Positions 1,106-18,665 of a DNA stretch of 18,665 bases are shown here, one piece after another. The DNA is from a virus (taxonomy: Duplodnaviria > Heunggongvirae > Uroviricota > Caudoviricetes). The translations under genes and the position numbers were made by a program. The first letter of the stretch is position 1; every line of letters starts with the position of its first letter. The notes beneath the pieces were generated by a model. That model made no database searches. It saw only the letters and a list, made by a program, of their open reading frames with translations, and was not told the DNA's origin. The stretch lies in the IMG/VR virus record IMGVR_UViG_2681813261_000010, one strand, 5' to 3'.

Positions 1106-1112
1106 GGACGAT

Positions 1113-1865: not shown

Positions 1866-1878
1866 ACGGAGGTAATAC

Positions 1879-2310
1879 ATGTTTCTGAAAACAGAACAAT
1901 TTGAATATAACGGTGTGTCTGTCACGCTTTCCGAATTGTCTGCGCTGCAGCGTATCGAGCATCTTGCCCTCCTGAAACGGCGTGCAGAACAGGCAGAATC
2001 CAGCGGCAACCTGCAGGTAAGCGTGGAAGATCTCGTCAGAACCGGCGCGTTTCTGGTGGCGATGTCCCTGTGGCATAACCATCCACAGAAAACGCAGTCA
2101 CCGTCAATGAATGAGGCCGTGATGAAGATAGAGCAGGAAGTGCTCACCACCTGGCCTGCCGATGCCATTGCCCGGGCGGAAGACGTGGTGTTGTGCCTGT
2201 CCGGGATGATCGAAGCTGTTCGTCCGGATACTGATATTACTGAAGTGGCGAAAAATAACACGCTGACTGATGATGATTTTTCTGCGGGAAAGTCTTCGAC
2301 GGCGAGCTGA
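1879..2310 (+). CDS. G: Tail assembly chaperone G
   Basis: 143 aa ORF, MFLKTEQFEYNGVSVTLSELSALQRIEHLALLKRRAEQ..., matches lambda gpG. GGAGG Shine-Dalgarno 8 nt upstream. Contains the slippery heptamer near its 3' end. Confidence 0.9.
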   Translation: MFLKTEQFEYNGVSVTLSELSALQRIEHLALLKRRAEQAESSGNLQVSVEDLVRTGAFLVAMSLWHNHPQKTQSPSMNEAVMKIEQEVLTTWPADAIARAEDVVLCLSGMIEAVRPDTDITEVAKNNTLTDDDFSAGKSSTAS

Positions 2311-2750
2311 ACTTTGCCCTCAGACTGGCGCGTGAGATGGGGAGACCCGACTGGCGCGCCATGCTTGCCGGGATGACATCCACCGAATATGCCGACTGGC
2401 GCCGTTTTTACCGCACGCATTATTTTCAGGATACCCAGCTGGATATGCATTTTTCCGGGCTGACGTACGCTGTACTCAGCCTGTTTTTTTGCGATCCGGA
2501 TATGCATCCCTCTGATTTCAGTCTGCTTGTCCCCCGGCATGAGGAAGAGCAGGTGGAGAGGCCGGATGAGGACAAAATGCTGATGCAGAAAGCGGCAGGA
2601 CTTGCCGGAGGCGTCCGGTTCGGTGGGGACGGAGGGCGCGATATTTTATCGTCTGCGGATGTGGCGGATGTCATGGTGGATGATGCCGCATTAATGATGG
2701 CTTCAGCGGGGATTCCGGGAGGTGTGAGATATGTCCCAGCCGGTTGGTGA
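1879..2750 (+). CDS. Tail assembly chaperone G-T fusion, produced by -1 programmed ribosomal frameshift at 2286-2292
   Basis: The T-like ORF (2337-2750, MGRPDWRAMLAGMTSTEYADWRRFY...) has no credible start of its own and lies exactly in the -1 frame relative to G. The heptamer G_GGA_AAG sits in the G zero frame at 2286-2292. Confidence 0.8.
2286..2292 (+). promoter_or_regulatory. -1 programmed ribosomal frameshift slippery site GGGAAAG (G to G-T)
   Basis: GCG GGA AAG in the G frame, identical to the lambda G-T slippery heptamer as recalled; the downstream -1 frame stays open to 2750. Confidence 0.75.
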
Positions 2751-5304
2751 TCTTGTTATTGACCTGAGTCTGGATGCTGTCCGTTTCGATGAGCAGATGA
2801 GCCGGGTAAGGCGTCATTTTTCAGGTCTGGATACCGACGCCAGAAAAACCGCCAGTGCTGTTGAACAGGGCCTGAGCCGCCAGGCGCTGGCTGCACAAAA
2901 AGCCGGGATTTCCGTCGGGCAGTATAAAGCGGCCATGCGAACCCTGCCCGCACAGTTTACGGATATCGCCACGCAGCTTGCCGGTGGTCAGAATCCCTGG
3001 CTGATCCTGCTGCAACAGGGCGGTCAGGTGAAGGACTCCTTCGGCGGGATGATCCCCATGTTCAGGGGGCTTGCCGATGCGATCACCCTGCCGATGGTCG
3101 GGGTCACCTCGCTGGCGGTGGCGACAGGTGCACTGGTGTACGCCTGGTACCAGGGAGATTCCACGCTTTCAGCGTTTAATAAAACCCTGGTTCTTTCCGG
3201 TAATCAGTCCGGACTGACTGCCGATCGTATGCTGACTCTCTCAAGAGCCGGGCAGGCAGCAGGGCTGACGTTTAACCAGGCGAGAGAGTCACTGGCAGCC
3301 CTGGTGAATGCCGGTGTGCGTGGTGGTGAACAGTTTGATGCCATCAACCAGAGTGTCGCGCGTTTTGCGTCTGCATCCGGTGTGGAGGTGGATAAAGTCG
3401 CTGAAGCCTTCGGGAAGCTGACCACTGACCCGACGTCGGGACTGATGGCGATGGCGCGCCAGTTCCGTAACGTGACGGCAGAGCAGATTGCGTATGTTGC
3501 ACAGCTGCAGCGTTCCGGAGACGAGGCCGGGGCATTGCAGGCGGCGAACGATATCGCCACGAAAGGCTTTGATGAGCAGACCCGTCGCCTGAAAGAAAAC
3601 ATGGGAACACTGGAGACCTGGGCGGATAAAACAGGGAAGGCATTCAAATCGATGTGGGATGCCATTCTGGATATCGGTCGTCCGGAATCCTCAGCGGATA
3701 TGCTCGCCAGTGCGCAGAAGGCATTTGATGAGGCGGATAAAAAATGGCAGTGGTACCAGAGTCGGAGCCAGCGCCGCGGTAAAACCTCCTCTTTCCGGGC
3801 CAACCTTCAGGGCGCATGGGATGACCGGGAAAATGCCCGTCTGGGTCTGGCAGCGGCAACGCTGCAGTCGGATATGGAAAAAGCCGGTGAACTGGCGGCA
3901 AGGGACAGGGCTGAGCGTGAGTCGTCACAGCTGAAGTATACCGGAGAGGCGCAGAAGGCGTATGAGCGCCTGCTGACGCCACTGGAGAAATATACCGCCC
4001 GGCAGGAAGAGCTGAATAAGGCCCTGAAAGACGGGAAAATCCTGCAGGCGGATTACAACACGCTGATGGCGTCGGCAAAAAAGGATTATGAGTCGACGCA
4101 GAAAAAGCCGTCCGGTGTGAAGGTGTCTGCCGGTGAGCGCCAGGAAGACCAGGCGCATGCAGCCCTGCTGGCGCTTGAAACTGAGCTCAGGACGCTGGAG
4201 AAGCACAGCGGTGCGAATGAAAAAATCAGCCAGCAGCGCCGTGATTTATGGAAAGCGGAAAATCAGTATGTGGTCCTGAAAGAGGCCGCCACGAAACGGC
4301 AGTTATCTGAGCAGGAAAAATCCCTGCTGGCCCATGAGAAAGAAACGCTGGAGTACAAACGCCAGCTGGCTGAGCTGGGCGACAAGATTGAACACCAGAA
4401 ACGGCTGAATGAGCTGGCACAGCAGGCGGCGCGGTTTGAACAGCAGCAGAGCGCGAAGCAGGCGGCAATCAGCGCAAAAGCCCGCGGACTCACCGACCGT
4501 CAGGCGCAGCGGGAGTCGGAAGAGCAGCGCCTTCGTGAGGTGTACGGTGATAATCCGGCTGCGCTGGCGAAGGCCACATCTGCACTGAAGAACACCTGGT
4601 CTGCGGAGGAGCAGCTTCGTGGAAGCTGGATGGCCGGGATGAAGTCCGGCTGGGGCGAGTGGGCGGAAAGTGCGACGGACAGTTTTTCGCAGGTTAAAAA
4701 CGCGGCCACGCAGACCTTTGACGGTATTGCACAGAATATGGCAGCGATGCTGATCGGCAGCGAACAGAACTGGCGTGGTTTCACCCGTTCTGTGCTGTCC
4801 ATGCTGACAGAGATTTTTCTGAAGCAGGCGATGGTGGGGATAGTCGGGAGTATCGGCAGCGCCATTGGCGGTGCTTTCGGTGGTGGTGCGTCTGCCTCCA
4901 CGGGGACGGCCATTCAGGCTGCGGCGGCGAACTTCCATTTCGCGACCGGGGGATTTACGGGGACGGGGGGTAAATATGAACCTGCGGGGATTGTTCATCG
5001 CGGGGAGTTTGTCTTCACGAAGGAGGCGACCAGCCGGATTGGTGTCGGCAATCTGTACCGCCTGATGCGGGGCTATGCGGAAGGTGGTTATGTCGGCGGT
5101 GCCGGAAGTCCGGCGCAGATGCGGCGGGCGGAAGGCATTAATTTTAATCAGAACAATCACGTGGTGATTCAGAACGACGGCCCCAACGGGCGGGCAGGGC
5201 CGCAGCTGATGAAAGCGGTGTATGAGATGGCCCGCAAGGGGGCACAGGATGAACTCCGGCTGCAGTTGCGTGATGGCGGTATGTTATCAGGGAGCGGTGG
5301 ATGA
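2731..5304 (+). CDS. H: Tail tape measure protein H
   Basis: 857 aa ORF, MSQPVGDLVIDLSLDAVRFDEQMSRVRRHF...; long coiled-coil-like Ala/Gln/Glu-rich centre and Gly-rich C-terminus (GSIGSAIGGAFGGGASASTGTA). Collinear with lambda gpH (853 aa). Confidence 0.95.
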   Translation: MSQPVGDLVIDLSLDAVRFDEQMSRVRRHFSGLDTDARKTASAVEQGLSRQALAAQKAGISVGQYKAAMRTLPAQFTDIATQLAGGQNPWLILLQQGGQVKDSFGGMIPMFRGLADAITLPMVGVTSLAVATGALVYAWYQGDSTLSAFNKTLVLSGNQSGLTADRMLTLSRAGQAAGLTFNQARESLAALVNAGVRGGEQFDAINQSVARFASASGVEVDKVAEAFGKLTTDPTSGLMAMARQFRNVTAEQIAYVAQLQRSGDEAGALQAANDIATKGFDEQTRRLKENMGTLETWADKTGKAFKSMWDAILDIGRPESSADMLASAQKAFDEADKKWQWYQSRSQRRGKTSSFRANLQGAWDDRENARLGLAAATLQSDMEKAGELAARDRAERESSQLKYTGEAQKAYERLLTPLEKYTARQEELNKALKDGKILQADYNTLMASAKKDYESTQKKPSGVKVSAGERQEDQAHAALLALETELRTLEKHSGANEKISQQRRDLWKAENQYVVLKEAATKRQLSEQEKSLLAHEKETLEYKRQLAELGDKIEHQKRLNELAQQAARFEQQQSAKQAAISAKARGLTDRQAQRESEEQRLREVYGDNPAALAKATSALKNTWSAEEQLRGSWMAGMKSGWGEWAESATDSFSQVKNAATQTFDGIAQNMAAMLIGSEQNWRGFTRSVLSMLTEIFLKQAMVGIVGSIGSAIGGAFGGGASASTGTAIQAAAANFHFATGGFTGTGGKYEPAGIVHRGEFVFTKEATSRIGVGNLYRLMRGYAEGGYVGGAGSPAQMRRAEGINFNQNNHVVIQNDGPNGRAGPQLMKAVYEMARKGAQDELRLQLRDGGMLSGSGG

Positions 5305-5630
5305 AAACCTTTCGCTGGAAAGTGAAGCCGGATATGGAGGTGAACTCGCAGCCATCGGTGCGTGAAGTGCGTTTTGGTGACGGGTACTCACAGCGTATGG
5401 CGGCAGGGCTGAATGCTGACCTGAAAACATACAGGGTGACGCTTTCCGTGACCCGGGAGGAGGCCCGGCATCTGGAAGCGTTCCTGGCAGAGCACGGTGG
5501 CTGGAAGGCATTTTTGTGGAAGCCACCCTATGCATACCGGCAGATAAAGGTGACCTGTGCCGGGTGGTCTGCGCGGGTCGGGATGTTGCGCGTTGAGTTC
5601 AGCGCGGAGTTTAAGCAGGTGGTGAACTGA
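5301..5630 (+). CDS. M: Minor tail protein M
   Basis: 109 aa ORF, MKTFRWKVKPDMEVNSQPSVREVRFGDGYSQR...VEFSAEFKQVVN, matches lambda gpM. Start overlaps the H stop (ATGA). Confidence 0.92.
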   Translation: MKTFRWKVKPDMEVNSQPSVREVRFGDGYSQRMAAGLNADLKTYRVTLSVTREEARHLEAFLAEHGGWKAFLWKPPYAYRQIKVTCAGWSARVGMLRVEFSAEFKQVVN

Positions 5631-6328
5631 TGCAGGATATTCGCGAAGAAAGTCTGAACGAGTCGGTTAAGTCAGAGCAGTCACCGCGGGTGGTACTCTG
5701 GGAAATCGACCTGACGGTACAGGGTGGTGAGCGGTATTTTTTCTGTAATGAGCTGAATGAAAAAGGGGAGCCGGTCACCTGGCAGGGGCGTAAGTATGAG
5801 GCATACCCGATTGACGGCAGCGGCTTTGAGATGAACGGCCGGGGCAGCAGTGCCAGACCGTCGCTGACGGTGTCCAATCTGTTCGGTCTGGTCACCGGGA
5901 TGGCGGAAGACCTGCAGAGTCTGGTGGGGGCCACGGTGGTCCGCCGCCGGGTGTATGCCCGTTTTCTGGATGCGGTGAATTTCGTTGCGGGCAATCCGGA
6001 GGCGGACCCGGAGCAGGAGCTGAGTGACCGCTGGGTGGTGGAGCAGATGTCGCAGCTGACAGCCATGACGGCCTCGTTTGTGCTGGCTACACCGACCGAG
6101 ACGGACGGGGCGCTGTTTCCCGGTCGCATCATGCTGGCGAACACCTGTATGTGGGATTACCGGGGAGATGAATGCGGGTATAACGGTCCTGCGGTGGCGG
6201 ATGAGTTCGACAACCCCACCACGGATATCCGTAAGGACAGATGCAGCAAGTGCATGCGCGGGTGTGAACTGCGCAGGAATGTCGGCAATTTTGGCGGTTT
6301 CCTTTCCATTAATAAACTTTCGCAGTAA
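5630..6328 (+). CDS. L: Minor tail protein L
   Basis: 232 aa ORF, MQDIREESLNESVKSEQSPRVVLWEIDLT...NVGNFGGFLSINKLSQ, with a C-terminal cysteine cluster (CMWDYRGDECGYNG...CSKCMRGC). Lambda gpL-like. Confidence 0.93.
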   Translation: MQDIREESLNESVKSEQSPRVVLWEIDLTVQGGERYFFCNELNEKGEPVTWQGRKYEAYPIDGSGFEMNGRGSSARPSLTVSNLFGLVTGMAEDLQSLVGATVVRRRVYARFLDAVNFVAGNPEADPEQELSDRWVVEQMSQLTAMTASFVLATPTETDGALFPGRIMLANTCMWDYRGDECGYNGPAVADEFDNPTTDIRKDRCSKCMRGCELRRNVGNFGGFLSINKLSQ

Positions 6329-6338
6329 ATCCCGGTTT

Positions 6339-7082
6339 ATGACACAGACTGAATCAGCGATTCTGGCACATGCCCGGCGGTGTGCGCCTGCGGAGTCGTG
6401 CGGCTTCGTGATAAGCACGCCGGAGGGGGAGCGGTATATCCCTTGTGTGAATATTTCCGCAGAGCCGGAGGCGTATTTTCGTATCGCACCGGAAGACTGG
6501 CTGCGGGCAGAGATGCAGGGGGAGATTGTGGCACTGGTCCACAGTCATCCCGGTGGGCTGCCCTGGCTGAGCGAGGCTGACCGGCGGTTGCAGATAAAAA
6601 GCGCACTGCCCTGGTGGTTGGTCTGCCGGGGTGACATTCACAAATTCCGCTGTGTGCCACATCTGACAGGACGGCGCTTTGAGCACGGGGTGACGGACTG
6701 TTACACGCTGTTCCGGGATGCTTATCATCTGGCGGGGACTGAAATGCCGGATTTTCATCGCGAGGATGACTGGTGGCGCAACGGTCAGAACCTTTACCTG
6801 GACAATATGGCGGTCACCGGCTTTTACCGGGTGCCCCTGTCCTCTGCACAGGCGGGCGATATTCTGCTGTGCTGCTTTGGTGCTTCGGTACCGAACCATG
6901 CCGCCATTTACTGCGGCAACGGTGAGCTGCTTCACCATCTGCCTGAACAACTGAGTAAACGGGAGAGGTATTCCGAAAAATGGCAACGACGAACGCATTC
7001 AGTCTGGCGTCACCGCCACTGGCACGCATCTGCCTTCACGGGGATTTACAACGATTTGGCCGCCGCCTCAGCCTGTATGTGA
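6339..7082 (+). CDS. K: Tail tip assembly protein K (JAB/MPN metalloprotease domain plus NlpC/P60 domain), long form
   Basis: 247 aa from ATG 6339, MTQTESAILAHARRCAPAESCGFVIS.... JAMM motif HSHPGGLPWLSEAD at 6540-6581 (H-x-H-x7-S-x2-D). NlpC/P60-like Cys in GVTDCYTLF and His in PNHAAIY. The 3' end overlaps I by 103 nt. Confidence 0.85.
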   Translation: MTQTESAILAHARRCAPAESCGFVISTPEGERYIPCVNISAEPEAYFRIAPEDWLRAEMQGEIVALVHSHPGGLPWLSEADRRLQIKSALPWWLVCRGDIHKFRCVPHLTGRRFEHGVTDCYTLFRDAYHLAGTEMPDFHREDDWWRNGQNLYLDNMAVTGFYRVPLSSAQAGDILLCCFGASVPNHAAIYCGNGELLHHLPEQLSKRERYSEKWQRRTHSVWRHRHWHASAFTGIYNDLAAASACM

Positions 7083-7660
7083 ACACGGCAGCGGAAGCCA
7101 TTCGCGCCCTGTCGATGCAGATGCCGGGCTTTCGCCGTCAGATGAACGAAGGCTGGTACCAGATACGTATTGCCGGTTATGACACGGCACCGGAGGCGGT
7201 GTACGCCCGTCTTCACGAACAGCTGGGTGAGGGAACGGTCATCCACATTGTGCCGCGACTGGCCGGGGCCGGAAAGGGTGGACTGCAGATTGTGCTGGGG
7301 GCGGCAGCCATCGTGGGCTCTTTCTTCACTGCCGGGGCATCAATGGCGTTATGGGGTTCAGCCCTGGCAGCCGGTGGTTTTTCTGCCACCACGATGCTGT
7401 TTTCACTTGGAGCCAGCATGATTCTGGGCGGTGTGGCCCAGATGCTGGCCCCGAAGGCAAAAACACCGGATTACCGCGCAACGGATAACGGCAGACAGAA
7501 CACGTACTTTTCCTCACTGGATAACATGATTGCCCAGGGGAACCCGATGCCGGTGCCTTACGGGGAAATGCTGGTTGGCTCCCGCCGTATATCCCAGGAC
7601 ATCAGCACCCGTGATGAAGGCGGGGGCGGAAAGGTCGTGGTTATCGGGCGGCAGGGGTAA
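6980..7660 (+). CDS. I: Tail tip assembly protein I (N-terminal ubiquitin-like domain ending in GG)
   Basis: 226 aa ORF, MATTNAFSLASPPLARICLHGDLQRFGRRL...; Gly-Gly at residues 100-101 (AGAGKGG), followed by a hydrophobic Gly/Ala-rich segment. Collinear with lambda gpI. Confidence 0.9.
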   Translation: MATTNAFSLASPPLARICLHGDLQRFGRRLSLYVNTAAEAIRALSMQMPGFRRQMNEGWYQIRIAGYDTAPEAVYARLHEQLGEGTVIHIVPRLAGAGKGGLQIVLGAAAIVGSFFTAGASMALWGSALAAGGFSATTMLFSLGASMILGGVAQMLAPKAKTPDYRATDNGRQNTYFSSLDNMIAQGNPMPVPYGEMLVGSRRISQDISTRDEGGGGKVVVIGRQG

Positions 7661-7667
7661 AAAGAAT

Positions 7668-7764
7668 AAAAAAATCCCGCAGTGATCGCGGACAGGAACT
7701 GCGGGAGAGTTACGAAGATTAAGTGTAAGGAATTATTCTTATATCACGACAAAAAAATTAACGC
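7668..7764 (-). ncRNA. Candidate ~95 nt small RNA (moron) between I and J, with no ORF
   Basis: The interval is bounded by the predicted minus-strand promoter and the minus-strand intrinsic terminator. It contains no ATG-initiated ORF longer than 2 codons and lies in an AT-rich insertion that lambda lacks (from memory). Confidence 0.3.
7676..7705 (-). terminator. Intrinsic terminator, minus-strand orientation (stem cccgcagt/actgcggg, 14 nt loop, 7-U tract)
   Basis: Perfect 8 bp GC-rich inverted repeat at 7676-7683 and 7698-7705. On the minus strand it is followed directly by UUUUUUU (plus-strand A-run 7668-7674). No U tract follows on the plus strand. Confidence 0.55.
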
Positions 7765-7770
7765 AGAGAA

Positions 7771-7798
7771 ATTATACGCGCCACAGTCAGTTTGTGAA
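7771..7798 (-). promoter_or_regulatory. Candidate sigma70 promoter on the minus strand (-35 TTCACA, 16 nt spacer, -10 TATAAT)
   Basis: Minus-strand TATAAT corresponds to plus 7776-7771; TTCACA corresponds to plus 7798-7793; spacer is 16 nt. Predicted transcription start near 7764, directed leftward toward the 7676-7705 terminator. Confidence 0.4.
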
Positions 7799-7873
7799 AA
7801 TGTGAAGATATTCAGAATTTTTATGCCATTACCGGTTTTAACCAACAGGATTATCGGTGGGCATGAAAGAAAA

Positions 7874-7906
7874 CCCCGGTATCTGCTGATACCGGGGTTT
7901 CTCTTT
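7874..7906. terminator. Bidirectional intrinsic terminator-like hairpin upstream of J
   Basis: 10 bp perfect inverted repeat ccccggtatc / gataccgggg with 4 nt loop (7874-7897). Followed by tttctcttt on the plus strand and preceded by gaaagaaaa, which gives a U tract on the minus strand. Confidence 0.5.
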
Positions 7907-8276
7907 AGCATGGCAGAAATGTGTTTCATGCTTTTCGGGCGAAGGATATCCGACTTCTGTACGGAATGGCAAGTGGCGGTTAATTTATTCAGGGGAAGGC
8001 TGTATGGGAAAAGGTGGCGGTAAGGCACACACGCCTCGTGAGGCGAAGGATAATCTCAAATCCACGCAGATGATGAGCGTGATTGATGCGATTGGTGAGG
8101 GACTGATAGAAGGTCCGGTGAAGGGACTGCAGAGTATCCTGGTGAACAAAACCCCGCTGACGGACACGGACGGTAATCCCGTGATACACGGTGTGACGGC
8201 GGTCTGACGCGCCGGGGAGCAGGAGCAGACACCACCGGAAGGCTTTGAGTCCTCCGGTGCTGAAACCGGACTGGGC

Positions 8277-9920
8277 GTGGAAGTGACGAAGGCAAAACCG
8301 GTGACGCGCACCATTACGTCCGCGAACATTGACCGCCTGCGGGTTACCTTCGGGGTGCAGTCACTGGTGCAGACCACGTCAAAGGGTGACCGAAACCCGA
8401 CATCCGTCCGCCTGCTGATTCAGTTACAGCGTAACGGTAACTGGGTGACAGAAAAGGATGTCACCATTAACGGCAAGACCACCTCGCAGTTTCTGGCGTC
8501 GGTGATTCTGGATAATCTGCCTCCCCGTCCTTTTAACATCCGGATGGTCCGGGAGACAGCGGACAGCACCACGGACCAGCTGCAGAATAAGACGCTGTGG
8601 TCGTCATACACCGAAATCATCGATGTGAAACAGTGCTACCCGAACACGGCCATTGTGGGGCTGCAGGTGGATGCGGAGCAGTTCGGCGGCCAGCAGATGA
8701 CGGTGAACTACCATATCCGCGGTCGCATCATCCAGGTGCCGTCAAACTATGACCCGGAAAAACGCACGTACAGTGGTATCTGGGACGGTAGCCTGAAACC
8801 GGCATACAGCAACAATCCGGCCTGGTGTCTGTGGGACATGCTGACTCACCCGCGCTACGGCATGGGAAAACGTCTGGGGGCGGCGGATGTGGACAAGTGG
8901 GCGCTGTATGCCATCGGGCAGTACTGCGACCAGACGGTCCCGGATAGTTTCGGGGAGACCGAGCCGCGGATGACCTTCAATGCGTACCTGGCACAACAGC
9001 GTAAGGCATGGGACGTGCTCAGTGATTTCTGCTCGGCGATGCGCTGTATGCCGGTATGGAACGGCCAGACGCTGACGTTTGTTCAGGACCGCCCGTCGGA
9101 TGTGGTGTGGCCGTACACCAACAGCGATGTGGTGGTGGATGATAACGGCGTGGGTTTCCGCTACAGCTTCAGTGCCCTGAAGGACCGGCACACGGCGGTG
9201 GAGGTGAATTATACCGACCCGCAGAACGGCTGGCAGACCTCCACGGAACTGGTGGAAGACCCGGAAGCCATACTGCGCTACGGACGCAACCTGCTGAAGA
9301 TGGACGCGTTCGGCTGTACCAGCCGCGGTCAGGCCCACCGTGCCGGACTGTGGGTGATAAAGACCGAACTGCTGGAAACGCAGACGGTGGATTTCACGCT
9401 CGGGTCTCAGGGGCTGCGGCACACACCCGGTGACATCATTGAAATCTGTGATAACGACTATGCCGGGACCCTGACCGGCGGACGTGTCCTGTCCATTGAT
9501 GCTGCCACCCGCACTCTGACGCTGGACCGTGAAGTGACACTTCCGGAGACCGGTGCCGCCACGGTGAACCTGATTAACGGCAGCGGTAAGCCGGTGAGTG
9601 TGGACATCACCGAACACCCCGCGCCGGACCGGATACAGGTCAGTACCCTGCCTGATGGTGTGGAGACATACGGGGTGTGGGGACTCTCCCTGCCGTCACT
9701 GCGCCGTCTCCTGTTCCGCTGTGTCTCCGTCCGGGAAAACACGGACGGCACCTTTGCCATCACGGCGGTGCAGCACGTACTGGAAAAAGAAGCCATCGTG
9801 GATAACGGTGCCCGCTTTGAGCCGCAGTCAGGTTCCCTGAACAGCGTCATCCCACCGGCAGTGCAGCACCTGACGGCCAGTATCTGGCGCAGGCGAAATG
9901 GGACACGCCGCGGGTGGTGA
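8277..9920 (+). CDS. J: J central fragment (ORF-caller start at GTG 8277; homology actually resumes right after the TGA, from 8208)
   Basis: ORF-track entry of 547 aa with lambda J-like sequence throughout ([39 protein letters not shown]...). Same frame as 8004-8207. Confidence 0.6.
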
Positions 9921-11455
9921 AGGGTGTGCGCTTCAGTCTGCGCCTGACCAGTGGTAAGGGAACGGATGCCAGACTGGTGACCACCGCCATCACCGCAGAC
10001 ACGGAGCACCGTTTCAGCGGCCTGCCGCTCGGGGAATACACCCTGACGGTGCGGGCGATAAACAGCTATGGCCAGCAGGGTGAACCTGCCACCACCACCT
10101 TCCGGATTGCCGCACCGGCAGCACCGTCGCGGATTGAGCTGACGCCGGGCTATTTTCAGATAACCGCAACGCCGCATCTTGCCGTTTATGACCCGACGGT
10201 ACAGTTTGAGTTCTGGTTCTCGGAAAAGCGGATTGCGGATATCAGGCAGGTTGAAACCACAGCACGCTATCTTGGCACGGCGCTGTACTGGATAGCCGCC
10301 AGTATCAATATCAAACCGGGCCATGATTATTATTTTTACGTTCGCAGTGTGAACACCGTTGGCAAATCGGCATTCGTGGAGGCTGTCGGTCGGGCGAGCG
10401 ATGATGCGGAAGGTTACTTGGATTTTTTCAAAGGAGAGATAGGGAAAACACATCTGGCTCAGGAGCTGTGGACGCAGATTGATAACGGTCAGCTTGCGCC
10501 TGACCTGGCTGAAATCAGGACGTCCATTACGGATGTCAGCAATGAAATCACGCAGACTGTCAATAAGAAACTGAAAGACCAGAGTGCGGCAATCCAGCAG
10601 ATACAGAAGGTTCAGGTTGATACAAATAATAATCTGAACAGCATGTGGGCTGTGAAGCTGCAACAGATGAAGGACGGACGCCTTTATATTGCGGGTATCG
10701 GTGCCGGTATTGAGAATACGCCAGCAGGAATGCAGAGTCAGGTGCTGCTGGCGGCAGACAGGATTGCGATGATTAATCCTGCGAATGGCAACACAAAGCC
10801 GATGTTTGTTGGTCAGGGCGATCAGATATTCATGAACGACGTGTTCCTGAAACGCCTGACGGCTCCCACCATTACCAGCGGCGGTAATCCTCCGGCATTT
10901 TCCCTGACACCGGACGGAAAACTGACCGCTAAAAATGCAGATATCAGTGGCAGTGTGAATGCGAACGCCGGGACGCTCAACAATGTCACAATTAATGAGA
11001 ACTGTCAGATTAAGGGGAAACTGTCAGCCAACCAGATTGAAGGCGATATAGTCAAAACAGTGGGTAAGGCTTTTCCGCGGGACTCCCGGGCACCGGAGCG
11101 GTGGCCATCAGGGACCATTACCGTCAGGATTTATGACGATCAGCCTTTTGACAGGCAAATTGTTATTCCGGCGGTGGCATTCAGCGGCGCTAAACATGAG
11201 CGGGAGAATAACGATATTTATTCGTCATGCCGCCTGATAGTACGGAAAAACGGTGCTGAAATTTATAACCGTACCGCGCTGGATAATACGCTGATTTACA
11301 GTGGTGTTATTGATATGCCAGCTGGTCGCGGCCACATGACGCTGGAGTTTTCGGTGTCAGCATGGCTGGTGAATAACTGGTATCCCACAGCAAGTATCAG
11401 CGATTTGCTGGTTGTGGTGATGAAGAAAGCCACCGCAGGCATCAGTATCAGCTGA
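9914..11455 (+). CDS. J: J C-terminal fragment including the receptor-binding region (ORF-caller start at GTG 9914; homology begins about 9872 in this frame)
   Basis: 513 aa ORF-track entry containing the conserved fibronectin-like stretch ([31 protein letters not shown]...) and a C-terminus that differs from lambda as recalled. Confidence 0.6.
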
Positions 11456-11474
11456 ATTTTATAACCCATATACG

Positions 11475-11499
11475 GGCGCCAGAAATGGCGCCTTTTTTA
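11475..11499 (+). terminator. Intrinsic terminator downstream of J
   Basis: ggcgcca-gaaa-tggcgcc hairpin (7 bp stem) followed by ttttttatt, 20 nt after the J stop. Confidence 0.6.
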
Positions 11500-11522
11500 T
11501 TGCAGAAAAGCGAGAGGTAATT

Positions 11523-12122
11523 ATGCGTAAAGTTTGTGCAGCCATTTTGTCCGCAGCCATCTGTCTGTCCGTATCCGGTGCGCCTGCATGGGCGTCTGAA
11601 CATCAGTCCACACTGAGCGCGGGGTATCTTCATGCCCGTACGAACGCTCCCGGCAGCGATAATCTGAACGGGATTAACGTGAAATACCGTTATGAGTTTA
11701 CGGACGCGCTGGGGCTGATTACGTCCTTCAGTTATGCCAATGCTGAGGATGAGCAAAAAACGCACTACAGCGATACCCGCTGGCATGAAGATTCCGTGCG
11801 TAACCGCTGGTTCAGCGTGATGGCGGGGCCGTCTGTACGCGTGAATGAATGGTTCAGCGCGTATGCGATGGTGGGTGTGGCTTACAGCCGTGTGTCGACT
11901 TTCTCCGGGGATTATCTCCGCGTAACTGACAACAAGGGGAAAACGCACGATGTGCTGACCGGAAGTGATGACGGTCGCCACAGCAACACGTCTCTGGCGT
12001 GGGGGGCTGGCGTGCAGTTTAACCCGACCGAATCCGTGACCATTGACCTTGCTTATGAAGGTTCCGGTAGTGGTGACTGGCGAACGGATGCATTTATTGT
12101 TGGTATCGGATACCGTATCTGA
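11523..12122 (+). CDS. lom: Outer membrane protein Lom (Ail/Lom/PagC family beta-barrel), moron
   Basis: 199 aa ORF with signal peptide (MRKVCAAILSAAICLSVSGAPAWA) and C-terminal aromatic terminus (...DWRTDAFIVGIGYRI), resembling lambda Lom as recalled. GAGAGG Shine-Dalgarno. Flanked by terminators on both sides. Confidence 0.92.
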   Translation: MRKVCAAILSAAICLSVSGAPAWASEHQSTLSAGYLHARTNAPGSDNLNGINVKYRYEFTDALGLITSFSYANAEDEQKTHYSDTRWHEDSVRNRWFSVMAGPSVRVNEWFSAYAMVGVAYSRVSTFSGDYLRVTDNKGKTHDVLTGSDDGRHSNTSLAWGAGVQFNPTESVTIDLAYEGSGSGDWRTDAFIVGIGYRI

Positions 12123-12227
12123 CAACAGACGCCGATTTATCTTCTGTAAATATTGTTATGATACGCAGGTTCATCCACCTTATGGGGTGAACTGCGTTTG
12201 AGGAAACGTAAAGTTACACTGTCCTGA

Positions 12228-12259
12228 AGCCCGTGGCGTCACTGCTGCGGGCTTTTTTT
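12228..12259 (+). terminator. Intrinsic terminator downstream of lom
   Basis: Hairpin aagcccgtggc...gctgcgggctt (with G-U wobbles) followed by tttttttatt, immediately upstream of the stf start. Confidence 0.5.
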
Positions 12260-12273
12260 ATTGGTGGAAAAGT

Positions 12274-13516
12274 ATGACAGTAAAAATTTCTGGCGTGCTT
12301 AAAGATGGCACAGGAAAACCAGTACAGAACTGCACCATTGTGCTGAAGGCCAGACGAACCAGCAGCACGATGGTGGTGAACACGGTGGCCTCTGAAAATC
12401 CGGATGAAGCCGGACGTTACAGCATGGATGTTGAGCATGGTCAGTACAGCGTCACCCTGCTGGTTGAAGGTTTTCCGCCTTCACATGCCGGGACCATTAC
12501 CGTCTATGAAGGTTCCAGACCAGGTACGCTGAATGATTTTCTCGGTGCCATGACGGAGGATGATGTCCGACCGGAGGCACTGCGCCGCTTTGAGCAGATG
12601 GTGGAAGAGGTGTCACGTAACGCCTCCGCGGTTGCACAGAATACGGCAGCCGCGAAAAAATCAGCCAGCGAGGCGGCAACTCATGCAACCGATGCTGCAG
12701 CCTCAGCACGTGCCGCCAGCACGTCAGCCGGACAGGCCGCGTCGTCGGCTCAGTCAGCGTCTTCCAGCGCAGGAACGGCATCGACAAAGGCCCGTGAAGC
12801 AGCAAAAAGTGCTGCTGCAGAGTCATCAAAAAGCGCGGCAGCTACCAGCGCCAGTGCCGCGAAAACGTCAGAAACGAATGCCGCAGCATCACAAAAATCG
12901 GCAGCCACTTCTGCATCCACAGCGACCACGAAGGCGTCAGAAGCTGCCACCTCGGCACGGGGTGCGGCGGCCTCAAAAGAGGCAGCGAAATCTTCAGAAA
13001 CGAATGCATCATCAAGTGCCAGTAGTGCAGCTTCCTCGGCAACGGCGGCAGGAAATTCCGCGAAGGCGGCAAAAACGTCCGAGACGAACGCTAAGTCTTC
13101 TGAAACAGCAGCGGGACAGAGCGCCTCAGCTGCGGCAGGTTCAAAAACAGCGGCTGCATTATCTGCCAGTGCCGCGTCAACAAGTGCCGGGCAGGCCTCA
13201 GCCAGTGCCACCGCCGCCGGAAAATCGGCAGAAAGCGCCGCATCATCCGCTTCAACAGCCACAACGAAGGCTGGCAAAGCCACTGAGCAAGCCACTGCAG
13301 CAGCGAGGTCTGCTTCTGCAGCAAAAACCTCTGAAACAAATGCAAAGACTTCAGCAGACAATGCTGCTTCCTCTAAGGCAGCAGCCGCATCGTCCGCCAG
13401 TTCGGCGGCGTCATCGGCATCATCGGCGTCTGCTTCAAAAGATGAGGCGACCAGACAAGCGTCAGCAGCGAAAGGTAGTGCCACGACAGCAACAACGAAA
13501 GCATCAGAGGCGGCAG
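12274..13516 (+). CDS. stf: Side tail fiber protein Stf, 5' portion (copy 1), truncated by the assembly gap
   Basis: [28 protein letters not shown]... matches the lambda Stf N-terminus, followed by the Ala/Ser/Thr-rich region. The frame runs into the N-run at 13517; the ORF-track continuation to 13683 is a chimera with a lom fragment. Confidence 0.8.
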
Positions 13517-13527
13517 NNNNNNNNNNN
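13517..13527. other. Assembly gap (11 N) coinciding with a stf-to-lom junction
   Basis: N-run; unrelated genes on either side (stf Ala/Ser repeat upstream, mid-lom sequence downstream). Confidence 0.95.
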
Positions 13528-13717
13528 TGGTTCAGCGCGTATGCGATGGCGGGTGTGGCTTACAGCCGTGTGTCGACTTTTTCCGGGGATTATATCCGCG
13601 TAACTGACAATAAGGGGAAAACGCACGATGTGCTGACCGGAAGTGATGACGGTCGCCACAGCAACACGTCTCTGGCGCACTGACGGTTTCATCGTGGGTG
13701 TCGGTTATAAATTCTGA
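13528..13717 (+). pseudogene. lom: lom paralog 3' remnant with an internal deletion/frameshift
   Basis: WFSAYAMAGVAYSRVSTFSGDYIRVTDNKGKTHDVLTGSDDGRHSNTSLA is ~96% identical in nucleotides to lom 11848-12000. The Lom C-terminus TDGFIVGVGYKF* is then read in a different frame (13679-13717), consistent with a ~30-codon deletion. No 5' end is present. Confidence 0.7.
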
Positions 13718-13743
13718 TTAGCCAGGTAACACAGTGTTATGAC

Positions 13744-13770
13744 AGCCCGCCGGTTCAGGCGGGCTTTTTT
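13744..13770 (+). terminator. Intrinsic terminator upstream of stf copy 2
   Basis: agcccgcc-ggttca-ggcgggct hairpin followed by tttttt. Confidence 0.55.
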
Positions 13771-13781
13771 GTGGGGTGAAT

Positions 13782-16700
13782 ATGGCAGTAAAGATTTCAG
13801 GTGTACTGAAAGACGGCACAGGAAAACCGGTACAGAACTGCACAATCCAGCTGAAAGCAAAACGTAACAGCACCACGGTGGTGGTGAACACGCTGGCCTC
13901 AGAAAATCCGGATGAAGCCGGGCGTTACAGCATGGACGTTGAGTACGGTCAGTACAGCGTTATTCTGTTGGTGGAAGGATTCCCGCCGTCACATGCCGGG
14001 ACCATCACCGTGTATGAAGATTCCCGACCCGGTACGCTGAATGATTTTCTCGGTGCCATGACGGAGGATGATGCCCGTCCGGAGGCACTGCGCCGTTTTG
14101 AGCTGATGGTGGAAGAGGTGGCGCGTAACGCGTCCGCGGTGGCACAGAACACGGCAGCCGCGAAGAAATCAGCCAGCGATGCCAGCACATCAGCCCGTGA
14201 GGCGGCAACCCATGCGACTGATGCTGCAGATTCAGCACGTGCAGCCAGCACGTCAGCCGGACAGGCCGCTTCGTCGGCTCAGTCAGCGTCTTCCAGCGCA
14301 GGAACGGCATCAACAAAGGCCACTGAAGCCTCAAAAAGTGCTGCCGCTGCAGAGTCCTCAAAAAGCGCGGCGGCTACCAGTGCCGGTGCGGCGAAAACGT
14401 TAGAAACGAATGCGGCAGCGTCACAACAATCAGCAGCCACTTCTGCATCCACCGCGACCACGAAAGCGTCAGAAGCTGCCACCTCAGCCCGGGATGCGTC
14501 GGCTTCAAAAGAGGCGGCAAAATCATCAGAAACGAACGCATCATCAAGCGCCAGTAGCGCAGCTTCCTCGGCGACGGCGGCTGCAAATTCTGCGAAGGCG
14601 GCCAAAACGTCCGAGACGAACGCCAGGTCTTCTGAAACGGCAGCGGGACAGAGTGCCTCAGCTGCGGCAGGCTCAAAAACAGCGGCTGCGTCGTCTGCCA
14701 GCGCCGCGTCAACAAGTGCCGGGCAGGCCTCAGCCAGTGCCACCGCCGCCGGAAAATCGGCAGAAAGCGCCGCATCATCCGCTTCAACAGCCACAACGAA
14801 GGCTGGCGAAGCCACTGAGCAGGCCACGGCAGCAGCGAGGTCAGCTTCCGCAGCGAAGACATCCGAAACGAACGCGAAAGCGTCGGAAACCCGTGCAGAA
14901 TCCTCAAAAACGGCTGCCGCATCGTCCGCCAGTTCGGCGGCGTCATCGGCATCATCGGCGTCTGCTTCAAAAGATGAGGCGACCAGACAGGCGTCAGCAG
15001 CGAAGGGCAGCGCCACGACGGCATCCACGAAGGCGACAGAGGCTGCTGGTAGTGCGACGGCAGCAGCTCAGAGCAAAAGTACGGCGGAATCTGCAGCAAC
15101 GCGCGCTGAGACAGCGGCAAAACGGGCAGAGGATATTGCATCCGCCGTGGCGCTTGAGGATGCGAGCACGACGAAAAAGGGGATAGTACAGCTCAGTAGT
15201 GCGACTAACAGCACTTCCGAGTCACTGGCGGCAACACCAAAAGCCGTTAAGGCCGCGTATGACCTGGCTAACGGGAAATACACCGCACAGGATGCAACGA
15301 CAGCACAGAAAGGGATAATCCAGCTAAGCAGCGCGACCAACAGCACGTCTGAAACGCTGGCGGCAACGCCAAAGGCAGTAAAAGCAGCCAATGACAATGC
15401 TGAGAAACGTCTGCAGAAAGATCAGAACGGTGCGGATATCCCTGGCAAAGACACCTTTACGAAAAATATTGGTGCCTGCCGTGCCTTCGGTGGGTCAGTA
15501 AGCACAACAACAGGAAACTGGACGACTGCACAGTTTATCGAGTGGCTGGATTCTCAGGGAGCATTTAACCATCCATACTGGATGTGCAAGGGTTCCTGGT
15601 CTTATGGCAATAATAAAATCATTACTGATACTGGCTGCGGTAATATTCATCTCGCCGGAGCTGTCATTGAAGTAATGGGGATAAAGTCAGCGATGACGAT
15701 CCGCATTACCACTCCGACCACATCCAGCGGTGGCGGAACAACCAACGCCCAGTTTACCTATATTAATCACGGAACAGATTATTCACCTGGCTGGCGAAGG
15801 GACTATAACTCCAGAAATAAGCCAACGGCATCAGAGATCGGGGCGCTACCGTCAGGTGGAACAGCAGTATCATCAGTTAATCTGGCTTCAAAAGGTCGGG
15901 TAGCCGCGCTGACAGACAATACGCAGGGGGCAGCAGGTCTTGAGTTATACGAGGTGTATAACAACGGATATCCAACAGCGTATGGAAATATCATTCACCT
16001 GAAAGGGATGACAGCCGTTGGCGAAGGTGAGTTACTCATCGGCTGGAGTGGTACAAGCGGTGCTCATGCTCCGGCATTTATTCGTTCACGACGGGATACG
16101 ACCGACGCAAACTGGTCGCCGTGGGCGCAGCTTTACACCTCGGCTCATCCTCCTGCAGAGTTTTATCCAGTCGGTGCACCAATCCCGTGGCCATCAGATA
16201 CCGTTCCGTCTGGTTATGCCCTGATGCAGGGGCAGACTTTTGACAAATCTGCTTACCCGAAACTTGCAGCCGCTTATCCGTCAGGCGTGATCCCTGATAT
16301 GCGTGGCTGGACGATTAAGGGCAAGCCCGCCAGTGGTCGTGCCGTATTGTCTCAGGAACAGGATGGCATTAAATCGCACACCCACAGCGCCAGCGCATCC
16401 AGTACGGATTTGGGGACGAAAACCACATCGTCGTTTGATTACGGCACTAAATCCACGAATAACACCGGGGCGCATACGCACAGTCTGAGCGGCTCTACAA
16501 GTTCAGCTGGGGCCCACCAACATAGTCAGACTGGGCCCAGAACGAATAGCGGGAGTCAACCTACTGGAATGTTTCCGGCAGGGAGTACTCAAGTTAGCGG
16601 GACTAATCAGGTTGGTATCAGTGGCTCATTAACCAGTGGCACCTCCCAATGGGTAGGTAAATCATCTTCAGAAGGAAACCATACACACTCACTGTCCGGC

Positions 16701-16865
16701 ACAGCAGCATCTGCGGGTGCACACGCGCATACTGTCGGTATTGGTGCTCATACGCACTCTGTTGCGATTGGTTCACATGGACACACCATCACCGTTAACG
16801 CTGCTGGTAACGCGGAAAACACCGTCAAAAACATCGCATTTAACTATATTGTGAGGCTCGCATAA
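13782..16865 (+). CDS. stf: Side tail fiber protein Stf, full length (copy 2)
   Basis: [28 protein letters not shown]... (ATG 13782; the ORF-track start at 13776 is a GTG two codons upstream). Ala/Ser-rich region, duplicated [15 protein letters not shown] motif, His-rich HxH repeats, and the lambda Stf C-terminus [22 protein letters not shown]. Confidence 0.9.
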
Positions 16866-17123
16866 TGGCATTCAGAATGAGTGAACAAGCACGGACCATA
16901 AAAATTTATAACCTGCTGGCCGGAACTAATGAATTTATTGGTGAAGGTGACGCATATATTCCGCCTCATACAGGTCTGCCTGCAAACATCGTGGCATCTC
17001 GTTGAAGATCATCGGGGTAAAACGGTTTATGACGTGGCTTCCGGCGACGCGTTATTTATTTCTGAACTCGGCTCATTACCGGAAAATGTCACCTGGTTAT
17101 CCCCGGAAGGGGAGTTTCAGAAG
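16865..17123 (+). pseudogene. tfa: Tail fiber assembly protein Tfa, 5' fragment with frameshift, truncated by a gap
   Basis: [41 protein letters not shown] matches the lambda Tfa N-terminus (ATG overlaps the stf TAA). The frame hits TGA at 17003-17005, while Tfa-like sequence ([44 protein letters not shown]) continues in the +1 frame from 16992 to the N at 17124. Confidence 0.7.
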
Positions 17124-17124
17124 N

Positions 17125-18665
17125 CGGCTGCATTATCTGCCAGTGCCGCGTCAACAAGTGCCGGGCAGGCCTCAGCCAGTGCCACCGCCGCCGGAAAATC
17201 GGCAGAAAGCGCCGCATCATCCGCTTCAACAGCCACAACGAAGGCTGGCAAAGCCACTGAGCAAGCCACTGCAGCAGCGAGGTCTGCTTCTGCAGCAAAA
17301 ACCTCTGAAACAAATGCAAAGACTTCAGCAGACAATGCTGCTTCCTCTAAGGCAGCAGCCGCATCGTCAGCCAGTTCAGCGGCGTCATCGGCATCATCGG
17401 CGTCTGCTTCAAAAGATGAGGCGACCAGACAGGCGTCAGCAGCGAAGGGCAGCGCCACGACGGCATCCACGAAGGCGACAGAGGCTGCTGGTAGTGCGAC
17501 GGCAGCAGCTCAGAGCAAAAGTACGGCGGAATCTGCAGCAACGCGCGCTGAGACAGCGGCAAAACGGGCAGAGGATATTGCATCCGCCGTGGCGCTTGAG
17601 GATGCGAGCACGACGAAAAAGGGGATAGTACAGCTCAGTAGTGCGACTAACAGCACTTCCGAGTCACTGGCGGCAACACCAAAAGCCGTTAAGGCCGCGT
17701 ATGACCTGGCTAACGGGAAATACACCGCACAGGATGCAACGACAGCACAGAAAGGGATAATCCAGCTAAGCAGCGCGACCAACAGCACGTCTGAAACGCT
17801 GGCGGCAACGCCAAAGGCAGTAAAAGCAGCCAATGACAATGCTGAGAAACGTCTGCAGAAAGATCAGAACGGTGCGGATATCCCTGGCAAAGACACCTTT
17901 ACGAAAAATATTGGTGCCTGCCGTGCCTTCGGTGGGTCAGTAAGCACAACAACAGGAAACTGGACGACTGCACAGTTTATCGAGTGGCTGGATTCTCAGG
18001 GAGCATTTAACCATCCATACTGGATGTGCAAGGGTTCCTGGTCTTATGGCAATAATAAAATCATTACTGATACTGGCTGCGGTAATATTCATCTCGCCGG
18101 AGCTGTCATTGAAGTAATGGGGATAAAGTCAGCGATGACGATCCGCATTACCACTCCGACCACATCCAGCGGTGGCGGAACAACCAACGCCCAGTTTACC
18201 TATATTAATCACGGAACAGATTATTCACCTGGCTGGCGAAGGGACTATAACTCCAGAAATAAGCCAACGGCATCAGAGATCGGGGCGCTACCGTCAGGTG
18301 GAACAGCAGTATCATCAGTTAATCTGGCTTCAAAAGGTCGGGTAGCCGCGCTGACAGACAATACGCAGGGGGCAGCAGGTCTTGAGTTATACGAGGTGTA
18401 TAACAACGGATATCCAACAGCGTATGGAAATATCATTCACCTGAAAGGGATGACAGCCGTTGGCGAAGGTGAGTTACTCATCGGCTGGAGTGGTACAAGC
18501 GGTGCTCATGCTCCGGCATTTATTCGTTCACGACGGGATACGACCGACGCAAACTGGTCGCCGTGGGCGCAGCTTTACACCTCGGCTCATCCTCCTGCAG
18601 AGTTTTATCCAGTCGGTGCACCAATCCCGTGGCCATCAGATACCGTTCCGTCTGGTTATGCCCTG
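17125..18665 (+). CDS. stf: Side tail fiber Stf, internal fragment (copy 3, mosaic), running off the window end
   Basis: Open in the stf frame from 17127 to the window end. 17125-17419 is nearly identical to copy 1 (13151-13445); 17425-18665 appears identical to copy 2 (14983-16223, constant offset 2442). Confidence 0.75.

What the first reader, a model, noticed from the sequence alone, without database searches (positions are those of the whole stretch)
13500..13720. N-gap 1 joins stf (mid-gene) to the 3' end of a lom paralog: scaffold junction, not biology
Upstream of the 11-N run the sequence is in the middle of the stf Ala/Ser repeat. Immediately downstream it is the 3' third of a lom gene, 96% identical to lom at 11848-12000 but not identical, and with its own internal deletion. 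A second terminator and a second stf (13782) follow. This looks like two lambdoid prophages with near-identical J-lom-stf modules collapsed or bridged by a scaffolder, so the true genomic order in the right third of the window is uncertain.
Basis: seen in the sequence. Interest (0 to 1): 0.5.

Follow-up and report, generated by a model that had tools for sequence, protein, structure and literature searches.

The report
False scaffold join between two prophages
The 11-N run at 13517-13527 is an assembly artefact that glues half a tail-fibre gene from one Shigella sonnei prophage to a piece of the lom gene from a second prophage about 559 kb away, so it is not a biological junction.

Summary
An 11-N run (13517-13527) is preceded by codon 414 of a side-tail-fibre gene (stf#1, in its Ala/Ser/Thr-rich part). 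It is followed by codons 110-159 of a second lom copy, 146/150 identical to lom1 at 11850-11999. That copy carries an 83-bp frameshifting deletion, then a terminator and a complete second stf starting at ATG 13782.

Both flanks occur in the finished chromosome of Shigella sonnei 53G (HE616528.1). Window 2523-13516 is 99.945% identical to one lambdoid prophage, where stf simply continues to 918 aa. Window 13528-17123 is 100% identical to a second prophage, where it is preceded by its own J and lom 5' half. The two points lie 558,618 bp apart.

- All 51 other loci carrying the last 37 bases before the gap continue into stf.
- The stf-to-lom adjacency is absent from IMG/VR, the metagenome collection and 5,426 complete E. 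coli genomes.
- The join is out of register, so homologous recombination cannot explain it.

Refinements: the modules are 87-97% alike, not near-identical. The 83-bp lom deletion is a real S. sonnei allele. The single N at 17124 is a second false join, to an stf fragment that is a private hybrid of the two alleles. This is not a real feature, and interest is low.

The parts
8004..11455 (+). J (tail tip) pseudogene of prophage 1. It has a TGG>TGA nonsense codon at 8205-8207 and a 22-bp frameshifting deletion at 9870 between CTGACGG repeats.
   Evidence: The same 67/547/513-aa split ORFs are called in finished S. sonnei chromosomes, so the damage is real decay and not sequencing error.
11523..12122 (+). 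lom1, an intact Ail/Lom outer-membrane beta-barrel gene of prophage 1 (199 aa).
   Evidence: Pfam PF06316, E 2e-125, positions 1-198 of 199. The exact protein is encoded in S. sonnei 53G and other finished chromosomes.
12226..12255 (+). Terminator-like stem-loop plus T run after lom1.
12274..13516 (+). stf#1, the 5' 414 codons of the side tail fibre gene of prophage 1, cut by the contig end. This is the end of segment A (1-13516).
   Evidence: PF08400. Window 2523-13516 equals 53G locus L078 1-10994 at 99.945% with no gaps. In 53G the gene runs on to 918 aa.
13517..13527 (.). The 11-N run, a scaffold gap placed between two non-adjacent contigs.
   Evidence: The flanks are 558,618 bp apart in 53G. 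The adjacency was not found elsewhere.
13528..13717 (+). lom' 3' fragment of prophage 2, and the start of segment B. Codons 110-159 are followed by the 83-bp deletion junction (CTGGCG, 13672-13677). A premature stop lies at 13681-13683 and the out-of-frame remnant runs to the original stop at 13715-13717.
   Evidence: It is 100% identical to 53G L071 from position 7747, where the missing 5' half of lom' and J' lie directly upstream.
13744..13765 (+). Terminator-like stem-loop plus T run after lom'.
13782..16865 (+). stf#2, the complete side tail fibre gene of prophage 2 (1027 aa).
   Evidence: PF08400, Phage_fiber_2 and Collar domains. The exact protein is listed in 3,688 blocks of the collection, including finished S. 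sonnei chromosomes.
16865..17123 (+). tfa 5' part of prophage 2, carrying a 65-bp frameshifting deletion after 16988. This is the end of segment B.
   Evidence: It is identical to 53G (L071), whereas seven other S. sonnei loci match only up to 16988.
17124..17124 (.). Single N, a second scaffold junction. It joins mid-tfa to mid-stf, out of register.
17125..18665 (+). Segment C, an internal stf fragment. Positions 17125-17378 carry the stf#1 allele and positions from 17379 on are identical to stf#2 (14937-16223). It is a private hybrid.
   Evidence: The 121-nt switch region has no match in IMG/VR. The best match of its first 576 nt in 5,426 complete E. coli genomes is 97.9%.

Best explanation
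The window is a scaffold from a short-read draft assembly of a Shigella sonnei-type genome. It is made of three contigs strung together with N placeholders: A (1-13516), B (13528-17123) and C (17125-18665).

Contig A is the tail region of one decaying lambdoid prophage, and it stops in the middle of stf. Contig B comes from a second lambdoid prophage elsewhere on the chromosome. It starts in the middle of that prophage's lom and ends in its tfa.

The two prophages carry paralogous J-lom-stf-tfa modules that share stretches of identical sequence. Contigs therefore break inside these genes, and the scaffolder, probably followed by a gap filler, linked ends that are not neighbours and left 11 N.

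Shown: the flanks are not neighbours in finished genomes, and each has a different true neighbour. Inferred: the software mechanism, meaning which read pairs or which program made the link. That cannot be recovered from the sequence alone.
For: 1. Both flanks map to one finished chromosome, HE616528.1, which is S. sonnei 53G (identity of the accession from PMC5447701).
   - A 2523-13516 matches at 99.945% with no gaps. There stf continues to 918 aa and is followed by tfa and an invertible segment.
   - B 13528-17123 matches at 100%, and is preceded there by J' (1165 aa) and the 5' half of lom'.
   - The end of A maps to 2,080,645 and the start of B to 2,639,263, which is 558,618 bp apart and in the wrong order for the window's orientation.
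2. All 51 other loci that carry the last 37 bases of A (50 IMG/VR loci plus one finished E. coli locus) continue with GCAGTGCGA[C/T]GG..., which is stf. None continues into lom or into N.
3. The pattern A-end, 0-30 of any base, then B-start has 0 matches in IMG/VR and 0 in the metagenome collection. In 5,426 complete E. coli genomes only one place covers at least 80% of a 400-nt junction probe. That place and the next-best class have the normal lom-then-stf order.
4. The join runs from stf codon 414 to lom codon 110. It is out of register, so recombination between the paralogous modules cannot produce it.
5. The same scaffold has a second discordant join at the single N, from mid-tfa to mid-stf.
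6. Related draft assemblies show the same style of 1-N and 9-N junctions with discordant and differing partners inside J, lom and stf.
   - L009 has the order lom'-stf#2 5' part | N | lom1 3' part-stf#1 | N | rest of stf#2.
   - L017, L044, L062 and L082 (CXDS01000012.1, which the collection lists as a carrier of the window's lom1 protein) show similar joins.
7. All six base differences between A and 53G (10260, 10261, 10264, 13395, 13404, 13425) are the base of the other prophage's paralog. This points to cross-talk between the copies.
8. A widely used Velvet, SSPACE and GapFiller pipeline is described by its authors as greedy and able to make false joins. It writes N gaps, and it was applied to 299 S. 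sonnei genomes with a mean of 405 contigs (PMC5320598).
Against: - No reads, coverage values or assembly metadata are available, so the false join is inferred from comparison with other genomes and not seen directly in this isolate.
- Shigella genomes rearrange often through IS elements, so colinearity with 53G is not guaranteed for every strain.
- I could not reconstruct which read pairs would link these two particular contig ends.
- The contig ends do not show a simple k-1 overlap signature of a de Bruijn graph.
- The 11-N length suggests the software estimated a small positive gap. That is unexplained.
Confidence: 0.93

Rival explanations
1. A real rearrangement in the source strain. Illegitimate (non-homologous) recombination or an IS-mediated event fused the middle of stf#1 to the middle of lom' of the other prophage. 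The Ns would then hide only about 11 unsequenced bases.
For: - Shigella chromosomes are rich in IS elements and rearrangements, and IS1 copies lie next to both prophages in 53G.
- With 11 Ns the stf#1 and lom' frames happen to be in phase, giving a 469-aa ORF at 12274-13683.
Against: - A unique junction would assemble straight through from short reads. Instead both sides stop where paralogous sequence begins.
- No other assembly or finished genome has the adjacency.
- The same scaffold has a second nonsensical join 3.6 kb further on.
- Frame agreement has a 1-in-3 chance and depends on an arbitrary N count.
- No IS end is visible at either flank.
Confidence: 0.03
2. A real local tandem arrangement, J-lom-stf'-'lom-stf-tfa, created by duplication of the lom-stf module within one prophage.
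For: The window reads lom, stf, lom fragment, stf in the same orientation.
Against: - The two copies are only 87% identical in stf and use different intergenic regions and terminators. They are therefore not a recent duplication.
- Each copy is 99.9-100% identical to a separate prophage in finished chromosomes.
- No complete genome shows a tandem arrangement.
Confidence: 0.02
3. The Ns are a masked or low-quality stretch inside otherwise continuous sequence, meaning ambiguous base calls and not a gap.
For: Some related draft contigs, such as L023, carry single Ns that are colinear on both sides. These look like ambiguous base calls at variable sites.
Against: Here the flanks are not colinear in any comparator. 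The left flank is stf codon 414 and the right flank is lom codon 110 of another prophage.
Confidence: 0.01

Closest known systems
False joins made by paired-end scaffolders and gap fillers (for example SSPACE and GapFiller after Velvet) at repeated prophage genes in draft bacterial assemblies
   Same: - Short N runs lie between contigs that end inside repeated genes.
- The flanks are discordant with finished genomes.
- There are several such joins in a row.
- The same style of junction appears in other drafts of this prophage family, including L082, which carries the window's lom1 protein.
- The pipeline's authors state that these greedy tools can make false joins (PMC5320598).
   Different: I cannot show which software produced this scaffold. 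That SSPACE writes a single N for a non-positive gap estimate is my recollection and was not checked here. Why this gap received 11 N is not explained.
The two lambdoid prophages of Shigella sonnei 53G (HE616528.1, around 2.07-2.09 Mb and 2.63-2.65 Mb)
   Same: - Segment A is 99.945% identical to the first prophage, including the J nonsense codon, the J 22-bp deletion and lom1.
- Segment B is 100% identical to the second prophage, including the 83-bp lom deletion and the 65-bp tfa deletion.
   Different: - In 53G the two are 558,618 bp apart and each module is complete.
- The window carries six paralog-type bases in A, and it has an extra hybrid stf fragment (C) that matches neither 53G copy at more than 97.8%.
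The lom-stf-tfa late-operon end of bacteriophage lambda
   Same: The gene order J, lom, stf, tfa is the same. Pfam families Ail_Lom, phage_tail_N and Caudo_TAP are present, and each lom is followed by a terminator before stf.
   Different: Both copies here are prophage remnants with inactivating lesions: a J nonsense codon plus a 22-bp deletion, an 83-bp lom' deletion and a 65-bp tfa deletion. The comparison with lambda itself rests on general knowledge. Lambda's sequence was not aligned here.

Membership tests
Scaffold gap joining non-adjacent contigs (assembly artefact) | A run of N lies between two blocks of determined sequence. | tested here: met
   11 N at 13517-13527, with a second single N at 17124.
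Scaffold gap joining non-adjacent contigs (assembly artefact) | In finished genomes of the same lineage the two flanks are not neighbours, and each flank has a different, continuous neighbour. | tested here: met
   In 53G the end of A is at 2,080,645 and the start of B at 2,639,263. stf#1 continues to 918 aa, and lom' is preceded by its own 5' half and J'.
Scaffold gap joining non-adjacent contigs (assembly artefact) | The contig ends fall in sequence that is repeated elsewhere in the genome. | tested here: met
   The last 366 nt of A are 88-96% identical to B and C. The first 150 nt of B are 97.3% identical to lom1. In relatives, the 12 nt plus 71 nt upstream of the start of B are identical to lom1 apart from one SNP between them.
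Scaffold gap joining non-adjacent contigs (assembly artefact) | Read pairs or long reads from the same isolate do not support the adjacency. | not testable with these tools
   No reads or coverage data are available.
Real recombination junction between paralogous prophage modules | The junction is in register, giving a hybrid gene such as lom1::lom' or stf#1::stf#2, and lies in contiguous sequence. | tested here: not met
   stf codon 414 is joined to lom codon 110, and the junction itself consists of Ns.
Real recombination junction between paralogous prophage modules | The same junction is recoverable in related genomes or assemblies. | tested here: not met
   0 matches in IMG/VR and in the metagenome collection. 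0 of 5,426 complete E. coli genomes have this order. All 51 loci carrying the terminal 37 bases of A continue into stf.
Ail/Lom outer-membrane beta-barrel (applied to the fragment right of the gap) | Match to the Pfam Ail_Lom profile above the curated cut-off. | tested here: met
   85.6 bits against a cut-off of 23, covering profile positions 110-159.
Ail/Lom outer-membrane beta-barrel (applied to the fragment right of the gap) | A complete barrel spanning about 199 residues of the profile. | tested here: not met
   Only 50 residues are present in the window. Even in finished genomes this allele is truncated to 160 aa by the 83-bp deletion.
Lambda-type side tail fibre Stf (applied to the ORF left of the gap and to 13782-16865) | The prophage tail fibre N-terminal domain PF08400 at the N terminus. 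| tested here: met
   E 9e-70 for stf#1 and E 1e-71 for stf#2, both covering 1-134 of 134.

The most novel reading that the evidence does not exclude
The source isolate really carries a rearrangement that places the 5' 414 codons of stf#1 next to the 3' part of lom' from a prophage normally about 559 kb away. This could arise through an inversion or translocation with an illegitimate junction, and would create an in-frame Stf-Lom chimeric ORF. Segment C and the paralog-type bases in A would then be traces of active gene conversion between prophage tail-fibre genes in this strain.
Probability: 0.03. Interest if true: 0.25.

Novelty: not a real feature. Interest (0 to 1): 0.05.

Why it matters
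The value is practical.

- The right third of the window, from 13517 onward, must not be read as one locus.
- A gene caller will produce a fake 469-aa Stf-Lom fusion (12274-13683) and a second fake ORF across the N at 17124.
- Synteny, prophage-boundary or tail-fibre host-range analysis on this scaffold would wrongly report a duplicated lom-stf module.
- Other findings from this window that depend on the order of lom, stf and tfa copies should be discounted.

The genes themselves are ordinary, decaying lambdoid prophage genes already present in finished S. sonnei genomes.

Tried and rejected
1. I suspected the 83-bp lom' deletion was itself an assembly artefact. The junction is in 10 draft IMG/VR contigs but in 0 of 5,426 complete E. 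coli genomes and 0 GTDB representative genomes. I rejected this because lom' is called as 160 aa in five of the eight places listed, including finished chromosomes such as S. sonnei 53G and 75/02 (CP019689.1). 53G also matches the window 100% across the junction. The E. coli collection simply excludes Shigella.

2. I looked for a de Bruijn k-1 overlap signature at the contig ends. B begins 22 nt before its first allele-specific SNP, but the end of A and the start of C do not fit any single k. This was inconclusive and is not used.

3. I tested whether C is the true continuation of stf#1. It is not a simple one.
   - C shares 244 nt with A and then switches to the stf#2 allele.
   - The closest relatives of A and 53G continue differently.

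4. I tested whether C is a real third stf allele.
   - The 121-nt switch region has 0 IMG/VR matches.
   - The best match in complete E. coli genomes is 97.9%.
   - The protein search could not decide, because that database lists only 90%-identity cluster representatives. The best full-length hits were 98%, and the best Shigella hit (P0016) is the stf#2 type.
   This remains unresolved. I lean towards a chimeric contig.

5. I considered that the A, B, C order reflects sorting of contigs by their start position on one reference module, as in reference-guided layout. The order here and in L009 fits, but an 11-N gap does not follow from it. I kept this only as a thought.

6. Tandem-duplication and masked-bases readings were rejected on the flank mapping.

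Full report
**What is in the sequence**

The window has two N runs, 13517-13527 (11 N) and 17124 (1 N). They divide it into segment A (1-13516), segment B (13528-17123) and segment C (17125-18665).

Segment A is a lambdoid tail region with these parts:
- Tail genes from the left edge of the window up to J, in the same order as the annotated E. coli prophage L001: tail proteins, tail assembly chaperones G and T, tape measure, minor tail proteins, a C40 peptidase and a tail assembly protein.
- A J gene broken by a TGG>TGA codon at 8205-8207 and by a 22-bp deletion at 9870.
- An intact lom (11523-12122; Pfam Ail_Lom, E 2e-125).
- A terminator (12226-12255).
- The first 414 codons of a side tail fibre gene, stf#1 (ATG 12274; Pfam phage_tail_N). 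It ends in its Ala/Ser/Thr-rich stretch exactly at the Ns.

Segment B has these parts:
- It opens with 150 nt that align without gaps to lom1 at 11850-11999, with 146/150 identities. This corresponds to Ail_Lom profile positions 110-159.
- An 83-bp deletion follows, between two CTGGCG hexamers. It shifts the frame.
- Next come a terminator (13744-13765) and a complete stf#2 (13782-16865, 1027 aa).
- It ends with the first 259 nt of tfa, which carry a 65-bp deletion after 16988.

Segment C is an internal piece of an stf gene.

**Where the two flanks really belong**

Complete E. coli genomes match the flanks at only 97-98.5%. In the best of them, A is colinear with a single J-lom-stf-tfa module, and the reference is about 2.1 kb shorter than the window.

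Exact-protein look-ups settled the matter. The stf#2 protein and the lom1 protein are both encoded in the finished chromosome HE616528.1, at two different places. That accession is Shigella sonnei 53G (PMC5447701).
- Window 2523-13516 equals the first place (L078) at 99.945%, with six mismatches and no gaps. There stf continues to 918 aa and is followed by tfa and an invertible tail-fibre segment.
- Window 13528-17123 equals the second place (L071) at 100% over all 3,596 nt. There it is preceded by the 5' half of the same lom (called as 160 aa because of the 83-bp deletion) and by a different, intact J of 1165 aa.
- The base before the gap maps to 2,080,645 and the base after it to 2,639,263. 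That is 558,618 bp apart and in the wrong order for a colinear reading.

**Is the adjacency seen anywhere?**

It was not found in any collection searched.
- The last 37 bases of A occur in 50 IMG/VR loci and in the finished E. coli locus L001. In all 51 the next bases are GCAGTGCGA[C/T]GG..., the continuation of stf, and never lom or N.
- A pattern requiring the end of A, 0-30 arbitrary bases, then the start of B has no match in IMG/VR or in the metagenome collection.
- A 400-nt probe made of the two flanks finds only one place covering at least 80% among 5,426 complete E. coli genomes. That place and the next-best class have the ordinary order, lom 3' end and then stf.
- The join is also out of register, from stf codon 414 to lom codon 110. 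Homologous recombination between the two paralogous modules would give in-register hybrids and cannot produce this.
- With 11 Ns the two frames happen to be in phase, so mechanical ORF listing reports a 469-aa ORF at 12274-13683. That ORF is an artefact.

**Signs that the assembler struggled with the paralogs**

- The single N at 17124 joins mid-tfa to mid-stf, a second nonsensical join.
- Segment C is identical to A for its first 244 nt (13151-13394). It carries the stf#1-type bases at 17369 and 17378, and is then identical to B for 1,287 nt.
- Its 121-nt switch region is absent from IMG/VR. No complete E. coli genome matches its first 576 nt above 97.9%.
- All six differences between A and 53G (10260, 10261, 10264, 13395, 13404, 13425) are the bases of the other prophage's paralog. 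The 96-nt stretch carrying the last three is absent from IMG/VR, although 50 contigs there carry the terminal 37 bases of A.
- At 13395 and 13404, A has the stf#2 bases while C has the stf#1 bases. This looks like allele swapping between copies during consensus building or gap filling. Real gene conversion cannot be excluded without reads.

**The same kind of join in other drafts**

Related draft assemblies contain 1-N or 9-N junctions whose flanks are discordant and whose partners differ from case to case.
- L009 reads lom'-stf#2 5' part | N | lom1 3' part-stf#1 | N | rest of stf#2. The two stf#2 pieces overlap by 177 nt.
- L017 goes from lom1 back into J.
- L044 and L082 both break at the window-equivalent position 10589 in J.
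- L062 joins J to stf#2.
- L082 (CXDS01000012.1, which the collection lists as a carrier of the window's lom1 protein) joins a P2-like tail gene to J across 9 N.

A Velvet, SSPACE and GapFiller pipeline has been used at scale, on 299 S. sonnei genomes with a mean of 405 contigs. Its authors say it writes N gaps and that these greedy tools can make false joins (PMC5320598). I cannot show that this window came from that pipeline. The match in style is only suggestive.

**What is real and what is not**

The genes are real, and so are their lesions. The J nonsense codon, the 22-bp J deletion, the 83-bp lom' deletion and the 65-bp tfa deletion all recur in the finished chromosome of S. sonnei 53G. 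I first suspected the 83-bp deletion of being an artefact, because no complete E. coli genome has it. The finished Shigella chromosomes refute that suspicion.

The order is not real. Segment A should be followed by the rest of stf#1, which is not in the window. Segment B should be preceded by J' and the lom' 5' half, also not in the window. Segment C is most likely a chimeric or redundant contig.

**Verdict**

The residual alternative is a private illegitimate rearrangement in the source isolate, at about 3%. It would be mildly interesting at best. This is an assembly artefact in an ordinary, already sequenced pair of Shigella prophage remnants. Its interest is low, and its only importance is as a warning for annotation and for other findings in the right third of this window.

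Noticed in passing
window 17124 and 17125-18665: A single N joins tfa (after 259 nt) to an internal stf fragment, which is a second false join. The fragment is a hybrid. It carries the stf#1 allele up to 17378 and is then 1,287 nt identical to stf#2 (14937-16223). Its switch region occurs in no IMG/VR contig, and complete E. coli genomes match its first 576 nt at 97.9% or less.
   Followed up: partly
window 10260-10264 and 13395-13425: Segment A differs from the finished S. sonnei 53G prophage at only six bases, and at all six it carries the base of the paralogous gene in the other prophage (J' or stf#2). The 13395-13425 patch is private to this assembly. It is either consensus cross-talk between copies or short gene-conversion tracts.
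   Followed up: partly
window 8004-11455: J is a pseudogene, with a TGG>TGA codon at 8205-8207 and a 22-bp deletion at 9870 between CTGACGG repeats. The same 67/547/513-aa split is called in finished S. sonnei chromosomes, so this is real prophage decay.
   Followed up: yes
window 13672-13683: The 83-bp deletion in lom' between CTGGCG repeats is present in S. sonnei finished genomes and in 10 IMG/VR contigs. It is absent from all 5,426 complete E. coli genomes searched, which makes it a possible lineage marker for this Shigella prophage.
   Followed up: yes
window 16988-16989: A 65-bp frameshifting deletion in tfa with 2-bp microhomology. It is shared with S. sonnei 53G and three IMG/VR contigs, but the seven other S. 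sonnei loci fetched match only up to 16988. This suggests the source isolate is close to the 53G lineage.
   Followed up: partly
window 12274-13683 and 17002-17628: Mechanical ORF calling runs straight through both N runs. It gives a fake 469-aa Stf-Lom fusion and a fake 208-aa Tfa-Stf ORF, which is an annotation hazard.
   Followed up: yes
L082 4732-4740, 8066, 14266 (CXDS01000012.1); L009 3411, 6838; L017 462, 12034: Other draft scaffolds of the same prophage family carry 1-N or 9-N junctions with discordant flanks. One example is a P2-like tail gene joined to J. The breakpoint at window-equivalent 10589 in J recurs in two independent drafts (L044, L082).
   Followed up: partly
L001 19878-21777 (E. 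coli NZ_OZ121077.1): In the closest complete E. coli relative of segment A, tfa is followed on the opposite strand by a reverse-transcriptase-domain gene and a SLATT-domain gene. This looks like a defence-type cargo pair at the prophage end. It is not present in the window.
   Followed up: no
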